From Nocardioidaceae bacterium (GTDB lineage: Bacteria; Actinomycetota; Actinomycetes; Propionibacteriales; Nocardioidaceae), in assembly GCA_013696745.1 (NCBI GenBank), contig JACCXZ010000133.1:1-60016 (forward strand): DNA of 60,016 nucleotides, given 5' to 3'. Both the position numbers and the translations under genes were made by a program. Shown here piece after piece: positions 37,628 to 53,955 of the stretch; the first letter of the stretch is position 1, and every line of letters starts with the position of its first letter. Below the pieces are notes generated by a model. That model saw only the letters and a program-made list of their open reading frames with translations, was not told the origin of the DNA and made no database searches.

Positions 37628-38431
37628 ATGAAGCGAGTTGCCACAGTCGCCGCCACGATTGCCTTGGCGGGCGGACTCGTCCTGTCCCTGCTGCCGGCGG
37701 CCGGTGCCTCCTCCGGACCGTCGATCAGCACGAGCGCGCCGGTGGCATCGTCGTCCAACGCGTCGGTCGACGAGCGTCTGGCCTACAAGCCCCGTCAGCG
37801 CTTCGCCCGGGAGTTCGTCCGACGCGGAGACGTCGACAGCTCACCGTCGAACATCAAGCACGTACGTGAGCTGCAGTACCGGCTCACCTGGGCCGGTGCG
37901 TACAACGGTCCCATCACCGGACGGTTCGACAGCCGCCTGAGCGGTGCAGTCAAGCGGTTCCAGAAGCGCAGCAAGCTGCGCGTCACCGGCGTCGCGAACG
38001 TCCACACCTGGAAGAAGTTGATCCCGAAGACGGTACGCGGCAGGAAGGCCGTTCCGCAGGGGTGCAAGGTGCGCACCGGCTGGCACGCCTGCTACGACCG
38101 CTCCAGGCACCAGGTCACGCTGTGGAAGAGGGGCAAGTTGTGGAACTCCTGGTTGGTGCGTGGCGGCTCGTCCAGCACTCAGACCCGCGTGGGGCGCTCC
38201 GAGGTGTACTTCCGCAACAAGGACCACGTGAGCTCGCTCTTCGGGTCACCGATGCCGTACTCGCAGTTCTTCGACGGCGGTCAGGCCTTCCACGGGTCGA
38301 CGCTGATGATGAATCCGTTCGTGGGGCACAGCCATGGGTGCGTGAACATGTACATCAAGGATGCGCGGCAGCTGTGGCAGCTGACCGCGCACCGTGAGCT
38401 GAAGGTGCGCGTCTACGGGGCGTGGTCCTGA
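37628..38431 (+). CDS. L,D-transpeptidase with peptidoglycan-binding domain
   Basis: Signal peptide, a PG_binding_1-like repeat (LQYRLTWAGAYNGPITGRFDSRLSGAVKRFQ) and the YkuD catalytic motif HGSTLMMNPFVGHSHGCVNM. Confidence 0.88.
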   Translation: MKRVATVAATIALAGGLVLSLLPAAGASSGPSISTSAPVASSSNASVDERLAYKPRQRFAREFVRRGDVDSSPSNIKHVRELQYRLTWAGAYNGPITGRFDSRLSGAVKRFQKRSKLRVTGVANVHTWKKLIPKTVRGRKAVPQGCKVRTGWHACYDRSRHQVTLWKRGKLWNSWLVRGGSSSTQTRVGRSEVYFRNKDHVSSLFGSPMPYSQFFDGGQAFHGSTLMMNPFVGHSHGCVNMYIKDARQLWQLTAHRELKVRVYGAWS

Positions 38432-39696
38432 CCGGCGGGGTCATGCATCGGGTGTGACACAGCGGCATCCGGGTCCGGGTGCCGCTGCTGTCGGGTCCGG
38501 AGCAGGGTCGCCGGCTGCACGGCGCTGCGACCCCATCGACGTCCGGCGGCGTCCACGGCGCGCTCGGCGTCGGACCATCCGTGGGGGCGCTGGCCCAGCA
38601 TCAGCTGGCGCGGGGTGGAGGCTGCCGCCGCCAGCCCGCTCACCCGCACCCCGACCAGTCTGATGCGGGCGCGTTGCAGTCCCAGCGCGGCGAACAGGTC
38701 GGCTGCCTGGGCGTGGACCTCGATGGCGACATCGGTGGGGTCGCGCAGCGTACGTGACCGGGTGATGGTCGTGAAGTCGCTGAATCGGACCCGGAGCGTG
38801 ACGGTGCGACCGACGACCTCGGCGGCCCGCATCCGCGAGGTGACCTTCGTCGAGGAGCGCAGCAGCTCCCGCAGCACCACCTCGGGATCGTCGGTGTCTC
38901 GGTCGAAGGTCGTGTCGGACCCGATGCTGCGCTCCGGCTCCTCGACACCCCGCCGGGCCACCACGGTGGTGCGGCCACCGCCCCACGACAGGTCGTGCAG
39001 CTGGGCACCGGTGGCGGCGCCGAGCGCCCGGACGAGGACATCCACCGAGGTGTGGGCGATGTCGCCGATCGTGCACAGGCCCAGCCGTCGCAGTGTCGTG
39101 GCGGTGCTCTCCCCCACCCCCCACAGCTCCTCGACGTCCAAGGGGTGCAGGAAGGCTGTGGCTTGCTCCGGGGTCACGACCACGAGCCCGTCCGGCTTGG
39201 CCCGCCGCGAGGCCAGCTTGGCGAGGTGCGTCGTGGAGGCGATCCCTACCGAGCAGGTGATCCGCTGCTCGTCGGCGATGCGGGCCCGCAGCTGCTCGGC
39301 GACCTGGCGGGAGCCACCGAGCCGTCGCGCCGACCCGGAGATGTCGAGGAACGCCTCGTCCAACGACATCACCTCCACCATCGGGGTGATGTCACGGAAG
39401 GTCTCCATCACTGCGATGGACACCGCCGCGAAGCTCTCGAAGTCAGGAGAGATGACGGTCGCGGCCGGGCAGAGCCGTCGGGCTCGCATCGTCGGCATCG
39501 CCGAGCGCACCCCGAAGACACGCGCCTCGTAGCTCGCGGAGAGCACCACCCCCCGATGTCCACCGCCGACGATCACCGGGGTGCCCTGCAGGTCGGGTCG
39601 GTCCCGCGTCATCACCGAGGCATAGAACGCATCCATGTCGACATGCAGGATCGTGCAGTCACCGGGCCGCCAGCCGCGGCATGTCGGTGACCTCAT
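38413..39696 (-). CDS. dinB: Y-family DNA polymerase IV
   Basis: 427 aa with catalytic motifs ILHVDMDAFYASV and SLDEAFLDISG intact, plus little-finger region homology. Confidence 0.92.
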   Translation of the reverse strand: MRSPTCRGWRPGDCTILHVDMDAFYASVMTRDRPDLQGTPVIVGGGHRGVVLSASYEARVFGVRSAMPTMRARRLCPAATVISPDFESFAAVSIAVMETFRDITPMVEVMSLDEAFLDISGSARRLGGSRQVAEQLRARIADEQRITCSVGIASTTHLAKLASRRAKPDGLVVVTPEQATAFLHPLDVEELWGVGESTATTLRRLGLCTIGDIAHTSVDVLVRALGAATGAQLHDLSWGGGRTTVVARRGVEEPERSIGSDTTFDRDTDDPEVVLRELLRSSTKVTSRMRAAEVVGRTVTLRVRFSDFTTITRSRTLRDPTDVAIEVHAQAADLFAALGLQRARIRLVGVRVSGLAAAASTPRQLMLGQRPHGWSDAERAVDAAGRRWGRSAVQPATLLRTRQQRHPDPDAAVSHPMHDPAGQDHAP

Positions 39697-39726: not shown

Positions 39727-40536
39727 TCAGTTGCGGCGGCGGGAGACCACCATGAGCTGACCGGCGACGGCGGTGAGCTCAGGGATCTGCGCAACGGCAC
39801 GCTCGAGCTCGACGAGGGCGGTCTGGGCACCGGGCTCGGTGTCGACGACCGAGCTAGGGACGAGGTCGGCGAACACTCGGAGGCCGTGGACCGACTCGGC
39901 GGTGAAGCCGTGCGTCGCCAGCAGGTCGAGGATCTCCCCGCGGGTGTAGCGGCGGGGACTTCGCGCCTGCGCGTCGCCGGTCGGTGCCTCGAGCAGCGTC
40001 CGGGCGGCCGCGAGGTGTCCGGCCAGGGCACGTCCCAGTACGGCGGCGTACCGTCCGGCAACGACGACCGAGAGGACGCCGTCGCTCCGGAGCGCGTCAC
40101 CGATCGCCTCCAGAGCCTGCCCGGGGTCGTCCACCACCTCGAGGACCCCGTGGCAGAGCATGACGTCGACCGAACCGGGCGCCACGTGGTCACCGAGGTC
40201 GATGGTGTCGCCCTGGACACCGACGACCCGATCGGCCACGTTGTTCTCGTCGGCGCGCCGATGCATCGAGGCCAGGGCGTCAGGGTTGGGGTCGATGACG
40301 GTGACGTGGTGACCGAGCTCGGCTGCACGCACAGCCAGCCCGCCGGTGCCGCCACCGAGGTCGACGACCTGACGGGGACCGCTGCCCTCGTCGGCGCTGC
40401 CGAGCAGGTCTCGCACCCGCTCCCAGAGCACGGCGTTGCGGGCGATCCCGTGAGCCACACTGCGCTGGGGCCCGCCGGGGCGCGGTTGATGGACCACCGG
40501 GAGACTCCTCGACGACGCGATGACAGGTCGCCCCAC
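39727..40536 (-). CDS. Class I SAM-dependent methyltransferase
   Basis: 269 aa with motif I VVDLGGGTGGLA and a post-I acidic residue (VIDPN). The start is 4 nt after the dnaE2 stop. Confidence 0.85.
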   Translation of the reverse strand: MGRPVIASSRSLPVVHQPRPGGPQRSVAHGIARNAVLWERVRDLLGSADEGSGPRQVVDLGGGTGGLAVRAAELGHHVTVIDPNPDALASMHRRADENNVADRVVGVQGDTIDLGDHVAPGSVDVMLCHGVLEVVDDPGQALEAIGDALRSDGVLSVVVAGRYAAVLGRALAGHLAAARTLLEAPTGDAQARSPRRYTRGEILDLLATHGFTAESVHGLRVFADLVPSSVVDTEPGAQTALVELERAVAQIPELTAVAGQLMVVSRRRN

Positions 40537-40540
40537 CCTC

Positions 40541-43500
40541 TCATCCGCCGGAACTCCCCGGACTGCTGTGCCACAGCTTGCGCGGTGCGGACTTGGCGTC
40601 CTCCCCGGCCGGCTTGACGTCGGCGTACGGCGACTGTCGGAAGCCGCTGGCGTGCACGAGCACCCGCCGACGCCCCATTCCGCCGCCAGTCATGTCCTGC
40701 TCGCAGACGTCGGATGCGTACCCGCCCACACCCTGACCGTTCGAGGGGCCGCCGGGCTCGGCCATGACGGGTCGACTCGAGCGGCTCTGCGCCGCTCCCT
40801 GCCCGGCCAGCTCACCGACCGTCTGACCGAATCCTTCGGGTACCTGCTCGAGGTGGACGTGCACTCCTTCGGTTCCCTCACGCTGCCAGATCTCGTGCAA
40901 CGCCGACATCTCCCAGCAGCCGGTGGCCCGCAGGGAGACCCCACGAGGGCCGGTGCGCCGGAGCTCTCCGCGCACGACCATCAGCCAGGAGTGAAAGACG
41001 GTGGCGGCGTAGGGACCCTGGGCGTCCTCGAAGAAGGTGGCATCCAGCGGTCCGGTGCCGTCGTCGAGGGTCAAGAAGACCACCCGGCGGCCGGACCGGA
41101 TCGGAGGTGTCTGGGTGGCGACCTTGACCCCTGCGACCAGCAGCGTGCTGCGGCTGCGCTGTTCCAGGAGCGCCTGCGACCGGGTCACCCCCAGTGCCTG
41201 CAGCATCGGGGTGTAGAAGTCGACGACGTGCTGGCTGACGTCGAGACCGAGGATCTCCAGCTCGGCGTGGACACGCTCGGCCGAGGTCATCTCCGGCAGG
41301 CCCGAGCGTTCAGCCTCCCCCGGTTCGTCGCCGAGGTCGAGGGTCAGCTGCACCGGTTCCGCATGCACCACGGCCGACGTCTGGGACTGTGCGGCTGCCT
41401 TGGCCCAGGTGTCGTCGGCGCCGTGCACCGCCCCACGCACCTGCGTCCGGGCCGGATCGATACCAGCCGATCTGTCCCGGCCTCGACCGGCGCGCCGTCC
41501 GGCCCGGGCGGTGGCCCTGCCCCAATGGTCGAGCTCGAGCACCTGCAGCAGCAGGTCACGCCGGGTGACCCGCCCGCGGCGGCGTACCGGGACCGCGGAG
41601 CCGATGCCGTAGATCCCGTCGAACCCACCGGCGAGCACGAGACGCTCCACCACCGGTCGTGACACCCGGGCGCGGTGCCAGAAGTCGGTGAGCGAGTGGT
41701 AGGGCTGACCACCGATGATGCGGGCGACCTCGGCGTCGGAGATGCCCTTGACGTCTGCCAGCGAGAGCCGGATGCCGTAGCCCCGGGCGTCGGGCAAGCC
41801 GCTGTCGGGTGCCGCCCGTGGGTGCTCGTCGAGCACCCGGGGCGGTGGCTCGTCGAAGCGGCCGACCCGCTCGACCCGGTAGACGTCGCGGCACTCGTTG
41901 ACGTCGAGGCCTAGCACCGCGATGCCGAAGTGGCGGGCGTCGTCGAGGATCAGCCGCTTGGGATACATGCCCGGGTCGTGGGTCAGCACCCCGGACATGA
42001 ACGCCGCGGTGTGGTGGGTCTTGAGCCAGGCCGACTGGTACGTCGGCAGGGCGAAGGCCGCGGCGTGGGCCTTGCAGAAACCGAACGACGCGAACGCCTC
42101 CAGGATGGTCCACACCTGGCCGACGACCGGCTCGGCGTAGCCACGGGCCAGTGCCCGTGGGTAGAACCAGGCCCTCGTGTCGACCTTGCCTTCCCTGTCA
42201 CCGAGGGCGCGCCGGTGCTCGTCGGCCTCGGCCAGCGTGCAGCCGGCGAAGGTCTTGATGATCTCGAGCACCTGCTCGTGGAACACGACGACCCCGCAGG
42301 TCTGGCGCAGGGTGTACTCCAGGTCGGGGTGCGGGTAGACAGGTGCTCGCCACCCCTGCCGGGCCGACAGGAACGGCGTCACCATGTCGCTCTTGACCGG
42401 TCCGGGCCGGAACAACGAGATGTCGGTGATGATGTCGTCAAAGGTCTCCGGCCCGAACTTGCCCACCAGCTCGCGTTGTCCGGGTGACTCGATCTGGAAG
42501 CAACCCAGCGTCTTGGACCGGCTGATCAGCGCGTACGTGGCAGGGTCGTCGAGCGGCACCTGGACCCGGTCGTCGAGGTCGAGCTCGACCCCCTCGGTCC
42601 GCTCGATCTCGGCGACCGCGTGGGCCATCGCCGATTGCATCCGGATGCCGAGCACGTCGAGCTTGAGCAGCCCGAGGTCCTCGACGTCCTCCTTGTCGAA
42701 CTGGCTCATCGGGAATCCGGCATAGCTGGCCTCCACCGGGGTGCGGTCCAGCAGGGTCGCATCGGACAGCAGCACCCCGCACGGGTGCAGCGCAACATGA
42801 CGGGGTAGGCCGTCGAGCCGGGTCACGAGGTCGAACAACAGCCTGAGCCGCGCCTCCCCCAGTCCGGAGGCCCGCAGCTCGGGCAGCTCCCGCAGGGCCG
42901 CATGGGCGTCGCGGGCACGGATGTGCGGGAACGCCTTGGCAATCGTGTCGATCTCACCGCCGGGCATGCCGAGCGCAGCCCCGACGTCACGGATCGCATG
43001 GCGTACCCGGTAGGTGTCCATCATCGCCACGCAGGCACACCGTGCACCGGAGTAGCGGTCGAGGATCATCTCGTAGACCTCGAGGCGGCGCGCGGACTCC
43101 ACGTCGATGTCCACGTCGGGCAGCGCCTGACGCAGCGGGGACAGGAACCGCTCCATCACCAGGTCGTGCCCGAGCGGCTCGACCCCGGAGATGCCGAGCG
43201 CGTAGTTGACCAGGCTGCCGGCGCCTGACCCACGGGCGGCGACGCGGACGCCCATGTCCCGGATCAGGTCGCAGACGTCGGCCACTGTCAGGAAGTACGA
43301 CGCGAAGCCAAGCCCGGCGATCATCCCGAGCTCGTGCTCGAGCCGGTCGTGCACGCGCAGACCGGCGGAGCTGCCGTAGCGGCGAACGATGCCGGACTCG
43401 CAGCGCTGGCGCAGGACGGCCTCGGCGGTGAGACCTACCCCACTCATTCCCCCGGCGGCTCCTGCACCGGTGACCTCGAACTCCGGGAAGTGCACCTCTC

Positions 43501-44479
43501 CGAGCCCGAGGTCGGCCTGCGGGTCGAGGGCGAGACGGTCGGCGAGGCGTCGGGTGCCCGCCAGCAGCCGCTGCGGGTCGCCGGCATCGCTGTGACCGCC
43601 CAGACCTGCCATCCGGCTGATCTCCTCGGCGACCTCCCCCATCTGCTTGCCGGACTTCAGGTGTCCCTCGGTGTTGCGCCGATCGAGGTGCCGGACGTCC
43701 AGTGGCACCAGCCGGCGGACCGCGTCGAGTACGTCGACCACGGGCGCATCGCCGGGGTCGGCGTGGCGGACGGCATTGGTGAGCACCATCCCCACACCGT
43801 GCCGGTCGGCAGTACCGGCCATGCGTGCAGCGTGGGTGCTGCTGCCGGGACCCGAACCCTGCACCCGGTGCGACACCAGCTCGACCAGCAGGTCGGGGGT
43901 GTCCACGACGTCGCGCCACCGCCGCAGCACCGCGGCCGCCAGGTCGTCGCGTCGGCGGGTCACCGCGGCACCGAGCTCGGACCCGGGGCCGAGCAGCACC
44001 ACGGCGTCACGGCCACCGAGGTGCTCCCCGACGAGGTCGAGCGTGGTCACCGGGTTGCCACGCTCGGCACGCAGGTGGGTGGCGGAGACGAGACGGCACA
44101 GACCGGCCCAGCCGTCACGGCTGCCTGCCAGGACGGTGACCCGGGGCAGCACACCAGCGACGTCACGGTGCGCACCGCCGCGAGCCGGGATGGTCCGCGG
44201 CTCACGGGCCACGGGTGCCGACGGCGCCCCGGAGCCGACCTCCAGCAGGCCGGTGGGCTCGACCGCCAGGTCGACCCCGAGGACGGGGCGGATGCCCGCC
44301 CGTAGGCACGCCTTGGCGAACCGGACCGCACCGTAGACACCGTCCCGGTCGGTCAGCGCGAGGGTGCCCATCTGCTGCTCGGCCGCCCGCTCGACCAGCA
44401 CGTGCGGGTGGGAGGCGCCGTAGCGCAGCGAGTAGCCGGAGGCGACGTGCAGGTGGACGAACGGGTCGTCGCCGATCAC
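40541..44479 (-). CDS. dnaE2: Error-prone DNA polymerase III alpha paralogue DnaE2
   Basis: 1312 aa with the N-terminal PHP motif FVHLHVASGYSLRYGAS and a polymerase core. The characteristic DnaE2 C-terminus is present (VLVHASGFRQSPYADVKPAG..PRKLWHSSPGSSGG). Confidence 0.93.
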   Translation of the reverse strand: MIGDDPFVHLHVASGYSLRYGASHPHVLVERAAEQQMGTLALTDRDGVYGAVRFAKACLRAGIRPVLGVDLAVEPTGLLEVGSGAPSAPVAREPRTIPARGGAHRDVAGVLPRVTVLAGSRDGWAGLCRLVSATHLRAERGNPVTTLDLVGEHLGGRDAVVLLGPGSELGAAVTRRRDDLAAAVLRRWRDVVDTPDLLVELVSHRVQGSGPGSSTHAARMAGTADRHGVGMVLTNAVRHADPGDAPVVDVLDAVRRLVPLDVRHLDRRNTEGHLKSGKQMGEVAEEISRMAGLGGHSDAGDPQRLLAGTRRLADRLALDPQADLGLGEVHFPEFEVTGAGAAGGMSGVGLTAEAVLRQRCESGIVRRYGSSAGLRVHDRLEHELGMIAGLGFASYFLTVADVCDLIRDMGVRVAARGSGAGSLVNYALGISGVEPLGHDLVMERFLSPLRQALPDVDIDVESARRLEVYEMILDRYSGARCACVAMMDTYRVRHAIRDVGAALGMPGGEIDTIAKAFPHIRARDAHAALRELPELRASGLGEARLRLLFDLVTRLDGLPRHVALHPCGVLLSDATLLDRTPVEASYAGFPMSQFDKEDVEDLGLLKLDVLGIRMQSAMAHAVAEIERTEGVELDLDDRVQVPLDDPATYALISRSKTLGCFQIESPGQRELVGKFGPETFDDIITDISLFRPGPVKSDMVTPFLSARQGWRAPVYPHPDLEYTLRQTCGVVVFHEQVLEIIKTFAGCTLAEADEHRRALGDREGKVDTRAWFYPRALARGYAEPVVGQVWTILEAFASFGFCKAHAAAFALPTYQSAWLKTHHTAAFMSGVLTHDPGMYPKRLILDDARHFGIAVLGLDVNECRDVYRVERVGRFDEPPPRVLDEHPRAAPDSGLPDARGYGIRLSLADVKGISDAEVARIIGGQPYHSLTDFWHRARVSRPVVERLVLAGGFDGIYGIGSAVPVRRRGRVTRRDLLLQVLELDHWGRATARAGRRAGRGRDRSAGIDPARTQVRGAVHGADDTWAKAAAQSQTSAVVHAEPVQLTLDLGDEPGEAERSGLPEMTSAERVHAELEILGLDVSQHVVDFYTPMLQALGVTRSQALLEQRSRSTLLVAGVKVATQTPPIRSGRRVVFLTLDDGTGPLDATFFEDAQGPYAATVFHSWLMVVRGELRRTGPRGVSLRATGCWEMSALHEIWQREGTEGVHVHLEQVPEGFGQTVGELAGQGAAQSRSSRPVMAEPGGPSNGQGVGGYASDVCEQDMTGGGMGRRRVLVHASGFRQSPYADVKPAGEDAKSAPRKLWHSSPGSSGG

Positions 44480-45063
44480 CGGGACTGCCCGCGGCCCGAG
44501 CCACTGAACCCCACCAGTCGTCCGACGATCCCGAGGAAGATCTCGACGTCACGCACCAGGTCGTCGGCGTCCCGGTTGCTGACTGCGTGCACGTGCCCGG
44601 CCTCGGCCGCGGCCCGCTTCGGCGCCCCGGCGGCGAAGAAGGTGGCCCACTCGGCCAGCTCCGGGGCGACCCGCTCGAGCAGCACCCAGGCGTTGCTCTG
44701 GCGGTGCATGCTCTGTGGGCGGGTCCGCACCACCAGAACCGCGGCGGTCGCACGCAGCGCAGCGACGTGAGCCGTGACGTAGCGCCGGTCGGCGTACGGC
44801 TCGACCCTCGCCTCGGACAGGGCCTGCTCAGCCCGGTCGAGGCTACGCGCTGCCTCGTGGAGACGGCCCGGAGACGGCAGTGCAGGCTGCTCGCTGCGGC
44901 TGGCGCGTGGGACGCGCTCACGTATGGTGCCTGGCGTGCTGATCGTCTGGCTTCGGCGCATGTCGCTCCCCTGTCGCTGCTGGTCGGTCCTCCAGCGCCC
45001 GGGGGAAGACGGTGCCGGTACGGCGGGTGCCGAACCGGCACGGGAGCTTCCCCACCCCCGCAC
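44476..45063 (-). CDS. HEPN-like helical protein (recalls the SAV_6107 family), translationally coupled to dnaE2
   Basis: The C-terminal half reads RRYVTAHVAALRATAAVLVVRTRP..NAWVLLERVAPELAEWATFFAAGAPKRAAAEAG..DADDLVRDVEIFLGIV. The stop overlaps the dnaE2 start by 4 nt. The true start may be the ATG at 44961. Family name is from memory. Confidence 0.7.
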   Translation of the reverse strand: MRGWGSSRAGSAPAVPAPSSPGRWRTDQQRQGSDMRRSQTISTPGTIRERVPRASRSEQPALPSPGRLHEAARSLDRAEQALSEARVEPYADRRYVTAHVAALRATAAVLVVRTRPQSMHRQSNAWVLLERVAPELAEWATFFAAGAPKRAAAEAGHVHAVSNRDADDLVRDVEIFLGIVGRLVGFSGSGRGQSR

Positions 45064-45208
45064 CGGCCCGACTGGCTGCTGCGCGGCCGGTGAGGGTCGA
45101 GGTCACGTCACGCACAGCAGGGTCCGCCACGCAAGGAGACGCTGCGAACATCACCCTGCGGTGTCCGAACAGGGTGTCGGCCACCCGGCACCGGAAGGTA
45201 CCGAGCGA

Positions 45209-45224
45209 TCGAACATTTGTTCGA
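45209..45224. promoter_or_regulatory. LexA (SOS) box, perfect TCGAAC-N4-GTTCGA
   Basis: The sequence is TCGAACATTTGTTCGA. It matches the actinobacterial/mycobacterial SOS box and lies between the divergent HEPN-like/dnaE2 string and the hydrolase gene. Confidence 0.88.
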
Positions 45225-45233
45225 ACGCTTCAT

Positions 45234-45256
45234 ACAGTACACCTCCGTGCCGACAG
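45234..45256 (-). promoter_or_regulatory. RecA-NDp-type (PafBC-type) DNA-damage promoter
   Basis: The minus strand reads cTGTCGgca-N8(cggaggtg)-TACTGT, against the described consensus tTGTCRgtg-8nt-TAnnnT. The LexA box begins 9 nt downstream. Confidence 0.7.
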
Positions 45257-45306
45257 CTGCGTCAAGGAACCAACCGCTGTGGACAACTCCGTATGGCGGC
45301 TGAGCA

Positions 45307-46206
45307 ATGCGTTGCGTCATGATCATTCGCGTGTTCGAGTCGTTCGAGGAAATCAGGGTCGCTGTTGATGACGGCGTACAGCTGAGAGTCCGCCACGGAG
45401 GCAGGGGTGAGCCGGTGGTGCTGCTGCACGGGCATCCCCGCACGCACACCACCTGGCACCGGGTCGCGCCGCTGCTGGTCACGGCCGGCCACACCGTGGT
45501 CTGCCCCGACCTGCGGGGGTACGGACAGTCCTCAACGCCGCCCACGACACCCGACCACGCCCCGTACTCCAAACGCGCCATGGCCGCCGACGTGCTGACC
45601 CTGATGCGCCAGCTGGGACACGAGCGGTTCGCCGTCGTCGGTCACGACCGAGGGAGCTACGTCGCGATGCGCCTGGCCCTCGACGCACCGGAGGCCGTGA
45701 CCCACCTCGCCGTTCTGGACAGCGTCCCGATCGCCGAGGCACTCGATCGCACCGACGCCAGGTTCGCCACGGCGTGGTGGCACTGGTTCTTCTTCGCCCA
45801 GCCCGACAAGCCCGAGCAGGCGATCCTCGCCGACCCTGACGCCTGGTACGGCGGGGACAAGACCGAAGGCATGGGTGCGGAGAACTACGCCGACTACCGC
45901 CGGGCGATCCATGACCCGGCAACGGTGCACGCGATGCTCGAGGACTATCGCGCCGGCTTGGGCCCCGACCGAGCGGCCGACGAGGCCGACCGCGCTGCCG
46001 GCCGCCGGATCACCTGCCCGACGCTGATGCTGTGGTCCACCGGTGACGATCTGGCTGATCTGCACGGCGACGTCCTGGCCATCTGGCAGCCGTGGACGAC
46101 CGACCTGAGCGGTGGCCCCATCGACAGTGGCCATCACATCGCCGAGGAAGCACCCGACGAACTGGCGGCCCGGCTCCATCAGTTCCTCGCCGCCAGCACC
46201 GCCTAG
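45307..46206 (+). CDS. Alpha/beta hydrolase, haloacetate-dehalogenase/epoxide-hydrolase-like
   Basis: 299 aa with HGHPRTHTTW, RGYGQS and a GHDRG nucleophile elbow. The start could be the ATG at 45319. Confidence 0.85.
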   Translation: MRCVMIIRVFESFEEIRVAVDDGVQLRVRHGGRGEPVVLLHGHPRTHTTWHRVAPLLVTAGHTVVCPDLRGYGQSSTPPTTPDHAPYSKRAMAADVLTLMRQLGHERFAVVGHDRGSYVAMRLALDAPEAVTHLAVLDSVPIAEALDRTDARFATAWWHWFFFAQPDKPEQAILADPDAWYGGDKTEGMGAENYADYRRAIHDPATVHAMLEDYRAGLGPDRAADEADRAAGRRITCPTLMLWSTGDDLADLHGDVLAIWQPWTTDLSGGPIDSGHHIAEEAPDELAARLHQFLAASTA

Positions 46207-46550
46207 TCCTGGCAGCCGATCAGGCGCCACTGACCCGTCGACCAGTCGAAGCTGAGGTCGAACACGCCCCGATGACCGAGCCGCCCCTGCGCTGCCTCGA
46301 CGCGCCAGATCTCACGCTCGGCCAGCAGCGCGTCCATCGACCCGCCGCCCCGGTCGGTCTGGCTCGCAATGTCCTCCGCCCCGAGCAGTGCCCGCACCTC
46401 CTCGTGCTGCCACCACGCACCGGTCTCCACCCAGTGCGAGACGATCTCGCACACCCGCCACAGCTGACCGCGCCACAGGAAGTGCGCCGGAGCCTCCCGC
46501 CGCTGCACCTGGCCCCGCTGCACCGAGACCGTGTCGTCGTACCGTCTCAT
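46203..46550 (-). CDS. Small conserved hypothetical protein (possibly DUF6504-like), damage-regulated
   Basis: 115 aa from the ATG at 46550 (MRRYDDTVSVQRGQVQRREAPAHFLWRGQLWRVCEIVSHWVETGAWWQ). SD is GGGAGGTGG. Family name is from memory only. Confidence 0.65.
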   Translation of the reverse strand: MRRYDDTVSVQRGQVQRREAPAHFLWRGQLWRVCEIVSHWVETGAWWQHEEVRALLGAEDIASQTDRGGGSMDALLAEREIWRVEAAQGRLGHRGVFDLSFDWSTGQWRLIGCQD

Positions 46551-46571
46551 CGGCACCACCTCCCGAGTGGA

Positions 46572-46587
46572 TCGAACACGCGTTCGA
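46572..46587. promoter_or_regulatory. LexA (SOS) box, perfect TCGAAC-N4-GTTCGA, inside a 34-nt palindrome
   Basis: The box is TCGAACACGCGTTCGA, flanked by CCGAGTGG and CCACTCGG (palindrome 46563..46596). It lies 22 nt upstream of the 46550 start. Confidence 0.88.
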
Positions 46588-46598
46588 CCCACTCGGAG

Positions 46599-46621
46599 AC
46601 GCTACACCTCTCCACCGACAG
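46599..46621 (-). promoter_or_regulatory. RecA-NDp-type (PafBC-type) DNA-damage promoter
   Basis: The minus strand reads cTGTCGgtg-N8(gagaggtg)-TAGCGT, an exact fit to tTGTCRgtg-8nt-TAnnnT. It sits immediately after the TopIB stop. Confidence 0.78.
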
Positions 46622-46624
46622 TGA

Positions 46625-47623
46625 TCACTCGCGCAGCAGCCGCAGCACCGCCCGCTCGAGTCGTGCCTGTCGCTCGTCCGGCGTAGGGGCGCGCTGCACC
46701 TTCGCCACCGCGGCTGCGATGGTGCGCCCGCTCTCGTAGCGCTCGATCACGCGGGGGTCGACGTAGGAGGCGCGGGCCACGGTGGGGGTGTTGCCCAGGT
46801 GCTCTGCCACGTCCTTCATCGCAGCGGAGATCTCCCGCTTGCGCGCGGTCCTGCTCTGCGCCGGCCGGCCGGCGAGCGAGACCGCGGCGTGCACGGTGCC
46901 GTGCCAGGTGCGGAAGTCCTTGGCCGAGACGTCGCAGCCGAGGATCACCTTGAGCTGGTCGTTGACCTGTCCAGCGGTCAGGTCACGCCAGCTGCGGCCC
47001 TGCCGGTAGGCCAGCAGGACCTCGCCACCCCGTCGCCGGCGTAGCGACTCGACGGCCTCGATCACTGTCTCGTCGGCGATCTCGATGCTCTGCGTCACTC
47101 CTGACTTCGCCGTGAACGTGAACACCAACAGGCCGCCGCGCCGGCGTACGTGTTCACGACGCAACGTGGTAAGGCCATAGCTGCCGTTGCTCGAGGCGTA
47201 GGTGTCGCTGCCGATCCGGAAGTAGCCGAGATCCAGCAAGCGGAAGGCTGTCGCGACCGCGTACGGCAGGTCCCGCGTGCGGGAGGCCAGGATGTCCGCG
47301 ACCGCGAGACGCGCCTCTGGCAGACGCCGCGCCACCCCTAGCACCTGGGCATGCTTGATGCGGTCGCGCTGGACGCGCCAGTCCGGGTGGTAGAGGTACT
47401 GGAGTCGTCCGGCGGCGTCGATTCCGGTCGCCTGCACGTGCCCGTTCGGGTACCGACAGATCCAGACGTCGCGCCAGGCCGGAGGGATGACCAGGGCCTT
47501 GACGCGCTCGACGTGCTCGACCGACAGCCGCTCAGCACGCTCGTCGAGGTACGTGAAGCCCCGACCGCTGCGGCGACGAGTCCAGCCCACGTCGGAGACT
47601 GAGACGGTACGCAGGCGGGCCAC
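46625..47623 (-). CDS. Bacterial type IB DNA topoisomerase (poxvirus-like)
   Basis: 332 aa with FTYLDERAERL, a conserved core (KDFRTWHGTV) and an active-site Tyr context (ARASYVDPRV). Confidence 0.85.
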   Translation of the reverse strand: MARLRTVSVSDVGWTRRRSGRGFTYLDERAERLSVEHVERVKALVIPPAWRDVWICRYPNGHVQATGIDAAGRLQYLYHPDWRVQRDRIKHAQVLGVARRLPEARLAVADILASRTRDLPYAVATAFRLLDLGYFRIGSDTYASSNGSYGLTTLRREHVRRRGGLLVFTFTAKSGVTQSIEIADETVIEAVESLRRRRGGEVLLAYRQGRSWRDLTAGQVNDQLKVILGCDVSAKDFRTWHGTVHAAVSLAGRPAQSRTARKREISAAMKDVAEHLGNTPTVARASYVDPRVIERYESGRTIAAAVAKVQRAPTPDERQARLERAVLRLLRE

Positions 47624-52660: not shown

Positions 52661-53815
52661 TCATGGTGCGCCGGCGGGTGTCGGGATCAGGATGCCGCCA
52701 GCGGTGTGGAACACCGCACCACCGTGTCCGTCGGCCGTGCAGACGAGATGGCCTTGGTGCAGCAGGGTGTGGCAGCTGGTGCACAGACCGATCAGGTTGG
52801 TCATGTCGGTGGGTCCGCCGGCCAACCAGGACACGATGTGATGGATCTGCAGGTTGCGGTGATGGCAGCCGGGGGTAGCGCACTGGAAGTCTTGCGCCAA
52901 GAGCACCGCAAGCCGCTGCTTCGGGGTGGCGATGCGTTCGGTGCGGCCGACGTCGAGCACGTTCCGGTACGGGGTGAGCGGACAGCCGCAGGTGTGTCGG
53001 GGACCGGGCGGGTCGTGACCCGGCGTCGGTCCCGGATCACCGCCACCGCCACCGCCACCGCCCCAGCCCTCAACGACGCGGCCAGTCACGGGATGCTGGT
53101 GGTCGGTAGTCGATCCGTCGGTGAGCACCACCGTCAAGGCTGCGTCGCAGCCCAACCGGGCGAGCAGGTCACGTCCGATGCTGCCGTAGCCGGCCAGGGT
53201 GGCCGGCGGCGAGGGGGTCGTCCTGTCGCCGGACATGGCGTGCGCGAGGATGGTGGCGTCGACGGTGACCACGAGGTGCGGGCGCACGCCGTGGTCACTG
53301 GGGAGCCCACCGGCCAGCACCGCATCCAGCAGGGCGTCGAGACCCTCGACACGGCGCCGTGCCACCGGGCGGTCGTCGGAGGCATGAGCCGGCTTGGCGA
53401 ACGAGTCGAGCAGGGCGCGCAGCTTCGCGCCGGTCTCAGGGCTGAGCCAGCCGTTGACCTGGTAGCCGCTTCCGACCCGGTGACACGTGATGTCCTGCTT
53501 CTCTTGGGCGTGCGCCCAGTCCCGCTCGGCCGCATCCGGGTCGATGGTGTCGCGCAGCCGGTCGACGGCGATGCGTAGGTCCCGCACGTCGCCGTCAGTG
53601 GCGACGCCGAGCAGGATCTGTTGGGCGTCTCGGACGACCGGGGTCCCGATGCGGCGGGTGGCCTCGGCGAACACGTCGACGTGATCCATCCGGATGCTGC
53701 CGGCAGCCAAGGCGGCGGCCACGTCGGGAAGCTGACGCAGGGCTGCACCGGCACGACGGCGACGGCGGGTCTGTGCTGGAGACAGCCGCAGCTCGCGGCG
53801 CAACCACGCGCTCAT
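52661..53815 (-). CDS. DUF222-type HNH endonuclease (REP13E12-like), N-terminally disrupted
   Basis: 384 aa with a DUF222-like helical region and the HNH motif CHHRNLQIHHIVSWLAGGPTDMTNLIGLCTSCHTLLH. An internal Gly8 run is encoded by (GGCGGT)x4. Confidence 0.82.
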   Translation of the reverse strand: MSAWLRRELRLSPAQTRRRRRAGAALRQLPDVAAALAAGSIRMDHVDVFAEATRRIGTPVVRDAQQILLGVATDGDVRDLRIAVDRLRDTIDPDAAERDWAHAQEKQDITCHRVGSGYQVNGWLSPETGAKLRALLDSFAKPAHASDDRPVARRRVEGLDALLDAVLAGGLPSDHGVRPHLVVTVDATILAHAMSGDRTTPSPPATLAGYGSIGRDLLARLGCDAALTVVLTDGSTTDHQHPVTGRVVEGWGGGGGGGGDPGPTPGHDPPGPRHTCGCPLTPYRNVLDVGRTERIATPKQRLAVLLAQDFQCATPGCHHRNLQIHHIVSWLAGGPTDMTNLIGLCTSCHTLLHQGHLVCTADGHGGAVFHTAGGILIPTPAGAP

Positions 53816-53932: not shown

Positions 53933-53955
53933 ATATTAGGTGTCTGCTCCGACAG
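53933..53955 (-). promoter_or_regulatory. RecA-NDp-type (PafBC-type) DNA-damage promoter upstream of the DUF222-HNH gene
   Basis: The minus strand reads cTGTCGgag-N8(cagacacc)-TAATAT, in a locally AT-richer patch about 25 nt upstream of the 53907 ATG. Confidence 0.65.

What the first reader, a model, noticed from the sequence alone, without database searches (positions are those of the whole stretch)
46203..46621. Second dual RecA-NDp / LexA promoter driving a small uncharacterised ORF, with the SOS box inside a 34-nt palindrome
Minus-strand cTGTCGgtg-N8-TAGCGT (46621..46599) fits the RecA-independent damage promoter consensus exactly. It is followed by TCGAACGCGTGTTCGA, nested in CCGAGTGG-g-[box]-t-CCACTCGG (46563..46596). 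An SD GGGAGGTGG and a 115-codon ORF follow (FLWRGQLWRV..SHWVETGAWW). The promoter architecture and even the 8-nt spacer (gagaggtg versus cggaggtg) resemble the dnaE2-string promoter 1.4 kb away. This suggests the small protein belongs to the same damage regulon and may be a missing partner of the DnaE2 module.
Basis: partly seen in the sequence, partly recalled or inferred. Interest (0 to 1): 0.62.

Follow-up and report, generated by a model that had tools for sequence, protein, structure and literature searches.

The report
Damage-induced ImuB-C partner of DnaE2
The small gene encodes a free-standing copy of the ImuB C-terminal domain, a helper subunit already predicted in the literature for the error-prone polymerase DnaE2 encoded 1.4 kb away; it sits behind a DNA-damage-responsive promoter, and the only unusual point is that the operon has been split and its promoter now occurs twice.

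Summary

DUF6504 is the ImuB C-terminal domain (ImuB-C). Pfam's model hits the extreme C-terminus of 4 of 7 true ImuBs. The window protein is 52% identical (E 3e-36) to the Nocardioides euryhalodurans protein that a 2026 NAR paper calls standalone ImuB-C and models in a DnaE2B-PolY-ImuBC-RecA complex.

In about 80 Nocardioidaceae loci the gene is the first of one string, DUF6504 > SAV_6107-like HEPN > DnaE2. That string sits behind one conserved promoter: PafBC-type -26 element, -10, then SOS box.

In the window and its two closest relatives the string is split. DUF6504 has a trimmed promoter copy (p1). HEPN-DnaE2-methyltransferase-PolY keep the full promoter (p2) plus a conserved, covarying leader hairpin.

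The long palindrome is specific to this clade, and its role is unresolved.

No expression data exist.

The parts
46615..46620 (-). p1 PafBC-type -26 element, TGTCGG
   Evidence: It fits tGTCgg(N10)tA(N3)T as defined in PMC8635444. It is identical in L081 and L083 while the spacer diverges.
46599..46604 (-). p1 -10 hexamer, TAGCGT
   Evidence: There is no canonical -35 at 16-18 nt.
46572..46587 (.). p1 SOS (LexA) box TCGAACGCGTGTTCGA, starting 11 nt after the -10
   Evidence: It is one of only two perfect boxes in 60 kb. It is identical in L081 and L083. A perfect box is present in 76 of 77 related loci.
46563..46596 (.). 34-nt palindrome around the p1 SOS box
   Evidence: -29.2 kcal/mol, z = -6.1. 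The arms show a compensatory change in L081. It is specific to this clade.
46556..46564 (-). Shine-Dalgarno sequence, GGGAGGTGG
   Evidence: It ends 5 nt before the ATG (the GGAGG core 8 nt before).
46203..46550 (-). Standalone ImuB-C protein (Pfam DUF6504), 115 aa plus stop
   Evidence: Pfam E 1.6e-16. It is 52% identical, E 3e-36, to the published N. euryhalodurans ImuB-C. The AF2 model is all-beta, pLDDT 84.
45307..46206 (+). Alpha/beta hydrolase gene lying between the two halves of the cassette; not part of the system
   Evidence: Pfam Abhydrolase_1. It is absent from L081 and L083. Its stop shares a CTAG with the ImuB-C stop.
45234..45265 (-). p2 promoter: TTGAC (45265..45261), TGTCGG (45255..45250), -10 TACTGT (45239..45234)
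   Evidence: It has the same layout as the ancestral promoter in relatives.
45209..45224 (.). p2 SOS box, TCGAACAAATGTTCGA
45076..45120 (-). Conserved leader RNA hairpin; invariant loop core TCGACCC at 45100..45094
   Evidence: Across 69 sequences, 92% of cells are paired and 13 of 13 pairs have double changes. The covariation score is 0.58 against 0.24 for shuffles (0/500). RNAalifold predicts the same structure. Nothing in Rfam matches.
44476..44961 (-). SAV_6107-like HEPN protein, 161 aa; start set by homology
   Evidence: Pfam PF18726, E 4.8e-33. The start is taken from L081. Its stop overlaps the DnaE2 start (GTGA).
40541..44479 (-). DnaE2-type (DnaE2B) error-prone polymerase, 1312 aa
   Evidence: Pfam PHP, DNA_pol3_alpha, finger, HHH_6 and OB domains; NCBIfam error-prone DNA polymerase.
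39727..40536 (-). SAM-dependent methyltransferase
   Evidence: It is in the same position in L081 and L083.
38413..39696 (-). Y-family polymerase with its catalytic motifs intact
   Evidence: Pfam IMS E 1.2e-48. The DMD and SLDE motifs are present.
46625..47623 (-). Bacterial type IB topoisomerase gene directly upstream of p1; context only
   Evidence: Pfam Top1B_N_bact plus Topoisom_I. It is present only in the window's clade.

Best explanation
The ORF encodes a free-standing ImuB C-terminal domain (ImuB-C, Pfam DUF6504). It is the small subunit of an actinobacterial ImuA/ImuB-free mutasome made of DnaE2B, an active Y-family polymerase, ImuB-C and RecA.

Shown here:
- its family and its orthology to the published ImuB-C;
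- invariant genomic linkage to DnaE2;
- conservation of the promoter motifs.

Inferred regulation: in undamaged cells LexA sits on the SOS box, which lies over or just after the transcription start, and p1 lacks a usable -35. After DNA damage, RecA-stimulated LexA cleavage frees the box. PafBC, activated by single-stranded DNA, binds TGTCGG at -26 and adapts the housekeeping RNA polymerase to the -10 (sigma adaptation).

Inferred function: ImuB-C then binds the PHP domain of DnaE2B, as in published AlphaFold models, and helps assemble the translesion complex.

Ancestrally one such promoter drove DUF6504-HEPN-DnaE2 as a single string. In this clade the string was split. A trimmed promoter copy (p1: -26 element, -10 and SOS box, without TTGAC or the leader hairpin) keeps ImuB-C in the same regulon as p2-driven HEPN-DnaE2B-methyltransferase-PolY.
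For: Identity of the protein:
- Pfam DUF6504, E 1.6e-16.
- Pfam's DUF6504 model hits the last ~75 residues of 4 of 7 ImuBs taken from imuA-imuB-dnaE2 cassettes. One hit is above the gathering score (25.0 bits, E 2.4e-5).
- hhalign of a broad DUF6504 profile against 12 ImuB C-termini gives P 3.4e-5, against 0.18 for a control region.
- BLASTP to the published standalone ImuB-C proteins gives E 3e-36 (N. euryhalodurans) and 5e-19 (T. lapidicaptus).
- The AF2 model is an all-beta fold with no PDB relative. The paper likewise calls ImuB-C a novel beta-barrel.

Linkage:
- DnaE2 lies downstream in 77 of 80 loci, and HEPN lies between in 69 of 74.
- The window carries the methyltransferase and an active PolY too.

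Regulation:
- A perfect SOS box is present in 76 of 77 related loci.
- GTCnn-N10-TAnnnT, ending 8-9 nt before the box, is present in 62 of 76 loci. The chance rate is 1.7e-4.
- The window has 3 exact PafBC motifs against 0.12 expected. The third lies upstream of a DUF222-HNH gene.
- No sigma-70-type -35/-10 pair is found in the region.
- p1 and p2 are both conserved in the two closest relatives, with motif bases fixed and spacers diverged.
- Mycobacterial imuA'-imuB and dnaE2 are under both LexA and PafBC (PMC10421592).
Against: - There are no RNA data, so the transcription start, induction and translation are all unobserved.
- The role of ImuB-C itself rests on published AlphaFold models and gene neighbourhoods, not on biochemistry.
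- A paper on S. venezuelae reports that the mycobacterial PafBC motif is not conserved there, so PafBC use outside mycobacteria is not a given.
- In p1 the -10 lies 11 nt before the box, against 8-9 nt in relatives.
- My ImuB model was too poor (pLDDT 50) to compare folds.
Confidence: 0.85

Rival explanations
1. p1 is a LexA-only promoter. The TGTCGG match is an inherited relic, or a weak RNA-polymerase contact, and PafBC plays no part in this organism.
For: PafBC binding is inferred from a motif alone. The mycobacterial PafBC motif was reported as not conserved in Streptomyces venezuelae. In relatives a TTGAC sits 4 nt upstream of TGTCGG in 55 of 63 loci, so a long-spacer (19 nt) SigA promoter could exist there. 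The presence of pafBC could not be checked.
Against: The GTC triplet and the N10 spacing are kept in 62 of 76 loci while the bases between vary. p1 lost TTGAC but kept TGTCGG in all three genomes of the clade. A third exact motif precedes a DUF222-HNH gene, a family that is RecA-independently induced in mycobacteria (own knowledge). No sigma-70-type pair is found in the region.
Confidence: 0.15
2. The long palindrome is the main functional element. As RNA it would act as a U-tract-less hairpin terminator or insulator for the Top1B gene, which ends 4 nt before p1. Alternatively it would be a protective 5' stem-loop of the p1 transcript. In neither case is it part of the LexA operator.
For: Long arms occur only in the clade where Top1B lies directly upstream on the same strand. 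The hairpin is very stable (z = -6.1). One arm pair changed on both sides between the window and L081. In L081 and L083 the SD is less accessible in a read-through RNA than in a p1-initiated RNA (0.30 against about 0.6; 0.44 against 0.65).
Against: In the window itself SD accessibility does not differ (0.55 against 0.50). The outer left arm lies upstream of the likely start and reaches the -10, so it is not part of a p1 transcript. L083 has only short, offset arms. No T-tract follows. There are only three genomes, so the covariation evidence is thin.
Confidence: 0.3
3. DUF6504 and the SAV_6107-like HEPN protein form a two-gene toxin-antitoxin-like or RNA-directed module that merely travels with dnaE2.
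For: HEPN domains are often toxins paired with small partners (PMC3710099). HEPN follows DUF6504 in 69 of 74 loci.
Against: DUF6504 is homologous to the DnaE2-binding domain of ImuB. Five loci have DUF6504 abutting DnaE2 with no HEPN (gaps of 10 nt or less). In this clade the two genes are separated and have separate promoters. The SAV_6107 family is listed as lacking the catalytic Rx4-6H motif, and I saw none in the window protein.
Confidence: 0.04

Closest known systems
DnaE2B-PolY-ImuBC-RecA putative mutasome of Actinobacteria (NAR 2026, PMC12926913; exemplars Tessaracoccus lapidicaptus and Nocardioides euryhalodurans)
   Same: [quoted passage not shown] The window protein is 52% and 38% identical to the two published ImuB-C proteins.
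   Different: The main text of the paper does not contain 'HEPN' or 'DUF', and I did not search it for the methyltransferase, the promoter or the leader hairpin. Here the ImuB-C gene is detached from the rest and has its own promoter copy.
Mycobacterial ImuA'-ImuB-DnaE2 mutasome
   Same: It is a damage-induced DnaE2 accessory system whose cassette is split into two transcription units, both under LexA and PafBC control. The ImuB C-terminal region there corresponds to DUF6504.
   Different: No ImuA' and no full-length, inactive, clamp-binding ImuB are seen in the cassette here. ImuB-C is a separate 115-aa protein, and an active PolY is present instead.
PafBC / RecA-NDp 'sigma adaptation' promoters (PMC8635444)
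   Same: There is an exact fit to tGTCgg(N10)tA(N3)T with no canonical -35, combined with an SOS box as at mycobacterial recA.
   Different: This has not been tested in this organism. Relatives carry an extra conserved TTGAC 4 nt upstream of the -26 element, which the published motif does not include.
Pfam PF20114 (DUF6504)
   Same: The window protein is a full-length member, at 60.9 bits against a cut-off of 24.2.
   Different: Pfam lists the family as of unknown function. The evidence here equates it with ImuB-C.

Membership tests
ImuB-C (standalone ImuB C-terminal domain) | Sequence homology to the C-terminal domain of ImuB | tested here: met
   Pfam's DUF6504 model hits the last ~75 residues of 4 of 7 ImuBs, best E 2.4e-5 and above the gathering score. 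hhalign gives P 3.4e-5 against 0.18 for a control region.
ImuB-C (standalone ImuB C-terminal domain) | Orthology to proteins published as standalone ImuB-C | tested here: met
   BLASTP gives E 3e-36 (52% identity) to QBR94233 and E 5e-19 (38%) to VEP41449. Both sequences were taken from the paper's supplementary file 5.
ImuB-C (standalone ImuB C-terminal domain) | [quoted passage not shown] | tested here: inconclusive
   The AF2 model has six strands, pLDDT 84 and a disordered insert at about residues 45-77. No PDB fold or sequence relative was found. The ImuB model for comparison was too poor, pLDDT 50.
ImuB-C (standalone ImuB C-terminal domain) | Genomic association with dnaE2 | tested here: met
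   DnaE2 lies downstream on the same strand in 77 of 80 loci; the other three contigs are truncated. In the window it is 1.7 kb away in the same orientation.
ImuB-C (standalone ImuB C-terminal domain) | Physical binding to the DnaE2 PHP domain | not testable with these tools
   Only the published AlphaFold models bear on this.
DnaE2B-PolY-ImuBC-RecA module | A catalytically competent Y-family polymerase in the cassette | tested here: met
   IMS, IMS_C and HHH domains are present, and the DMD and SLDE motifs are intact.
DnaE2B-PolY-ImuBC-RecA module | The genome lacks imuA and full-length imuB | not testable with these tools
Neither gene is in the cassette.
DnaE2B-PolY-ImuBC-RecA module | RecA-NT motif on the PolY | not tested
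   I did not look for it.
Actinobacterial LexA (SOS) regulon | TCGAAC-N4-GTTCGA operator at the promoter, conserved in orthologues | tested here: met
   The box is perfect. It is perfect in 76 of 77 related loci, and the -10 ends 8-9 nt before it in most of them.
Actinobacterial LexA (SOS) regulon | LexA binding and RecA-dependent induction | not testable with these tools
   No RNA runs hold the locus.
PafBC (RecA-NDp) promoters | tGTCgg(N10)tA(N3)T with no canonical -35 | tested here: met
   There is an exact match. No sigma-70-type pair is found. The motif is conserved in 62 of 76 relatives against a chance rate of 1.7e-4.
PafBC (RecA-NDp) promoters | pafBC present in the genome and PafBC-dependent activation | not testable with these tools

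The most novel reading that the evidence does not exclude
The natural split of the operon in this clade separates two control layers. The conserved, covarying leader hairpin (invariant UCGACCC loop, not in Rfam 15) stayed with HEPN-DnaE2B-PolY and not with ImuB-C. This would mean it is an undescribed cis-acting RNA that gates expression of the polymerase genes specifically. The ImuB-C gene instead acquired a clade-specific long hairpin around its SOS box, which insulates it from the Top1B gene upstream. Because hairpin and HEPN occur without each other in some relatives, the RNA would act independently of the HEPN protein.
Probability: 0.25. Interest if true: 0.55.

Novelty: new member of a known kind. 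Interest (0 to 1): 0.3.

Why it matters
The result turns a Pfam family of unknown function (DUF6504) into a named part of an error-prone polymerase machine. It also shows that this part stays in the damage regulon even after the operon is broken, which argues that co-induction with DnaE2 is under selection. The split gives a natural dissection of the cassette. It separates the ImuB-C promoter from the leader hairpin, the HEPN gene and the methyltransferase, none of which I found discussed in the papers I read. Damage-induced mutagenesis in Actinobacteria is of general interest because the mycobacterial version drives the emergence of drug resistance. Here, however, the organism is an environmental actinobacterium and the system type is already published, so the gain is mainly in annotation and in pointing to testable regulatory parts.

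Tried and rejected
I made no genome-wide count of SOS boxes or PafBC motifs, and no check for pafBC, lexA, imuA or imuB.
- The library holds no paper that mentions DUF6504.
- A Nocardioidaceae-only profile did not detect ImuB. A broader profile was needed.
- The top 150 of 861 representative hits are almost all short standalone proteins. The longer ones show only DUF6504, apart from one that also carries a HEPN domain.
- There is no DUF6504 in the plasmid collection. The one plasmid-borne Streptomyces dnaE2 I inspected has no DUF6504 or HEPN gene upstream.
- I found no PDB sequence or fold relative.
- The full-length ImuB model was of too low confidence to compare folds.
- Names of cluster members were uninformative.
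- The idea that the palindrome masks the SD in read-through RNA holds in L081 and L083 but not in the window.
- The idea that a long palindrome is a general feature of this promoter is rejected. Only the 2-3 flanking bases (tGT/ACa) pair in relatives.
- There is no remnant of DUF6504 in the p2 leader.
- p1 and p2 resemble each other little beyond the motif bases (score z about 3.4). Duplication is therefore plausible, but the alignment alone does not prove it.
- Nothing in Rfam matches in 44400..46800.
- No RNA runs were found, and the runs of unknown kind behave as DNA.
Full report
**Observation.** Read on the minus strand, the sequence shows each element at the coordinates given.
- The Top1B gene ends with TGA at 46627..46625.
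- Four bases later come TGTCGG (46620..46615), ten bases, and TAGCGT (46604..46599).
- Eleven bases later comes a perfect SOS box, TCGAACGCGTGTTCGA (46587..46572). It is flanked by CCGAGTGG and CCACTCGG.
- The SD GGGAGGTGG and the ATG at 46550 follow.
- The ORF runs to TAG at 46205..46203 and encodes 115 residues.

The published PafBC motif is tGTCgg(N10)tA(N3)T (PMC8635444). Its exact form, TGTCGG-N10-TAnnnT, occurs three times in the 60 kb against 0.12 expected, and no shuffle out of 100 reaches three. Two of the three are this promoter (p1) and the one in front of the HEPN-DnaE2 string (p2, 45255..45234). The third lies about 118 nt upstream of a DUF222-HNH gene. The only two perfect SOS boxes in the window are those of p1 and p2. 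A consensus scan finds no sigma-70-type -35/-10 pair in 44900..46750.

**What the protein is.** It matches Pfam DUF6504 over its full length (E 1.6e-16). No paper in the library mentions that name. A 2026 survey of bacterial polymerases (PMC12926913) describes DnaE2B polymerases of Actinobacteria. [quoted passage not shown] I tested the link in three ways.
1. Pfam's own DUF6504 model hits the last ~75 residues of 4 of 7 ImuB proteins taken from annotated imuA-imuB-dnaE2 cassettes on plasmids. The E-values are 2.4e-5, 0.0036, 0.077 and 0.09, and the best hit is above Pfam's gathering score.
2. A profile of 121 diverse DUF6504 proteins aligns to a profile of 12 ImuB C-termini with P 3.4e-5. Under a lenient alignment setting it covers the whole domain. 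A control ImuB segment gives 0.18.
3. The paper's supplementary file prints its ImuB-C sequences. The window protein is 52% identical (E 3e-36) to the one from Nocardioides euryhalodurans, and 38% identical over its full length (E 5e-19) to the one from Tessaracoccus lapidicaptus.

The AlphaFold2 model has six beta strands, with a low-confidence variable insert at about residues 45-77 (pLDDT 84). It has no relative in the PDB by fold or by sequence. That agrees with the paper's statement that ImuB-C is a novel beta-barrel. My model of a full ImuB was too poor to compare.

**Context in relatives.** A scan of species-representative genomes returned 80 loci, nearly all Nocardioidaceae.
- In 77 of them a DnaE2-type gene follows on the same strand. 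The other three contigs end too soon.
- A SAV_6107-like HEPN gene lies between in 69 of the 74 loci with enough sequence. In five loci DUF6504 abuts DnaE2 directly.
- ybaK lies divergently upstream.
- A perfect SOS box precedes DUF6504 in 76 of 77 loci.
- In 62 of 76 loci GTCnn-N10-TAnnnT is present, and in most of them its -10 ends 8-9 nt before the box. The chance rate for that is 1.7e-4.
- A TTGAC lies 4 nt upstream of the -26 element in 55 of 63 loci.

The ancestral state is therefore one damage promoter driving DUF6504-HEPN-DnaE2.

**What is special here.** The two closest relatives have DUF6504 proteins 90% and 84% identical to the window's, and they share the window's layout. The order is Top1B, p1, DUF6504, a gap carrying p2 and a leader of about 250 nt, then HEPN, DnaE2, methyltransferase and Y-family polymerase.
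- Both promoters are conserved in all three genomes. The motif bases are fixed and the bases between them diverge.
- p1 lacks TTGAC and the leader element; p2 keeps both.
- The window additionally has an alpha/beta hydrolase gene (45307..46206, plus strand) between the DUF6504 stop and p2.
- One relative keeps a 27-nt stretch 89% identical to the 3' end of that gene, so the gene may be ancestral to the clade and lost in the others.
- Contigs from four independent DNA metagenomes span both junctions.
- The window's polymerase string ends with a methyltransferase and a Y-family polymerase that retains the DMD and SLDE catalytic motifs. The cassette is thus the DnaE2B-PolY-ImuBC type.

**How it most likely works.** Shown: the family, the orthology, the linkage and the motif conservation. 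Inferred: LexA represses both units by sitting at the start site. After damage LexA is cleaved, and PafBC, activated by single-stranded DNA, recruits the housekeeping polymerase through the -26 element. ImuB-C then binds the PHP domain of DnaE2B. In mycobacteria the split imuA'-imuB and dnaE2 units are under both LexA and PafBC (PMC10421592), so the dual architecture has a direct precedent. The promoter copy on the detached gene keeps the subunits co-induced.

**The palindrome.** It is very stable (-29.2 kcal/mol, z = -6.1). In relatives only the two or three bases next to the box pair, giving a tGT[box]ACa consensus. Across 12 flanking positions the mean number of complementary bases is 5.1, against 4.3 when flanks are taken from different loci. 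Long arms are found in p1 of the window (8 positions) and of the closest relative (12 positions, with one pair changed on both sides). The third genome has short offset arms.

These are the genomes where Top1B ends just upstream on the same strand. A role as a terminator-like insulator, or as a 5' stem-loop, is therefore possible. The outer left arm, however, lies upstream of the likely start. Masking of the SD in read-through RNA is predicted for the two relatives but not for the window. I leave this unresolved.

**Leader hairpin.** Between the SOS box and DUF6504, 66 of the 80 loci carry a 13-bp stem with a loop ACCUCGACCC(C).
- Across 69 sequences 92% of cells are paired.
- All 13 pairs have changes on both sides.
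- The covariation score is 0.58, against 0.24 in shuffles (0 of 500 reach it) and 0.11-0.21 when the partner is slid.
- G-U pairs are common, which points to RNA on the sense strand.
- RNAalifold finds the same structure.
- Nothing in Rfam matches in the window.

In the window's clade this element lies in the p2 leader (45120..45076) and not in p1. Hairpin and HEPN are not obligately coupled: 59 loci have both, 10 have HEPN only, 3 have the hairpin only and 2 have neither.

**Earlier notes of this scan.** They describe the same operon in at least 31 genomes, and the neighbouring stretch of this genome, with the same reading. I reached the identification independently before reading them. They are not independent evidence.

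**Limits.** There are no RNA data. The function of ImuB-C itself rests on published structure predictions.

**Verdict.** The system is of a published kind and its regulation has a known precedent. The new points are the equation of DUF6504 with ImuB-C, the split operon with a duplicated promoter, and what that split says about the undescribed leader hairpin.

Noticed in passing
window 45076-45120 (minus); upstream of DUF6504 in 66 of 80 related loci: A conserved leader hairpin with an invariant TCGACCC loop core and a strongly covarying 13-bp stem; nothing in Rfam 15 matches in the window. In this clade it sits in front of HEPN-DnaE2, not in front of ImuB-C.
   Followed up: yes
window 53933-53954 (minus) and 52661-53815 (minus): A third exact PafBC-type motif (TGTCGG-N10-TAATAT), with no SOS box, lies about 118 nt upstream of a DUF222-HNH gene. 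The Pfam match of that gene starts at profile position 41, so the N-terminus may be frameshifted or truncated.
   Followed up: partly
window 46203-46206: A single CTAG supplies the stop codons of both convergent genes, ImuB-C (minus strand) and the alpha/beta hydrolase (plus strand). This leaves no room for terminators.
   Followed up: no
window 45209-45306: The hydrolase gene starts 83 nt from the p2 SOS box on the opposite strand. The palindromic LexA site could therefore also affect a divergent hydrolase promoter.
   Followed up: no
related loci, upstream of the -26 element; window 45261-45265: TTGAC is conserved 4 nt upstream of TGTCGG in 55 of 63 relatives (5 nt in the window's p2). That places a -35-like hexamer about 19 nt from the -10. 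The published PafBC motif has no such element, and p1 lacks it.
   Followed up: partly
L032, L065, L069, L074, L080: Five related loci have DUF6504 abutting DnaE2, with 10 nt or less between them and no HEPN gene. Three of these passed my hairpin screen, and all three have a variant loop (GGCUUCGACCCC).
   Followed up: partly
L083 10389-10414: A 27-nt stretch in the DUF6504-HEPN gap is 89% identical to the 3' end of the window's hydrolase gene. This suggests the hydrolase was once present there and was later deleted.
   Followed up: partly
window 46625-47623 (minus): A bacterial type IB topoisomerase gene ends 4 nt before p1. It is present only in the window's clade, where it separates ybaK from the cassette.
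   Followed up: no
supplementary file 5 of PMC12926913 (QBR94233): The published N. euryhalodurans ImuB-C sequence starts at MEVRRG and lacks the conserved MRRYDDPV N-terminus seen in homologues. Its annotated start is probably too far downstream.
   Followed up: no
window 45195-45240 (minus): The p2 SOS box region also folds well (-18.8 kcal/mol, z = -4.6). Its outer arms, GTACTG and CGGTAC, overlap the -10 hexamer.
   Followed up: partly
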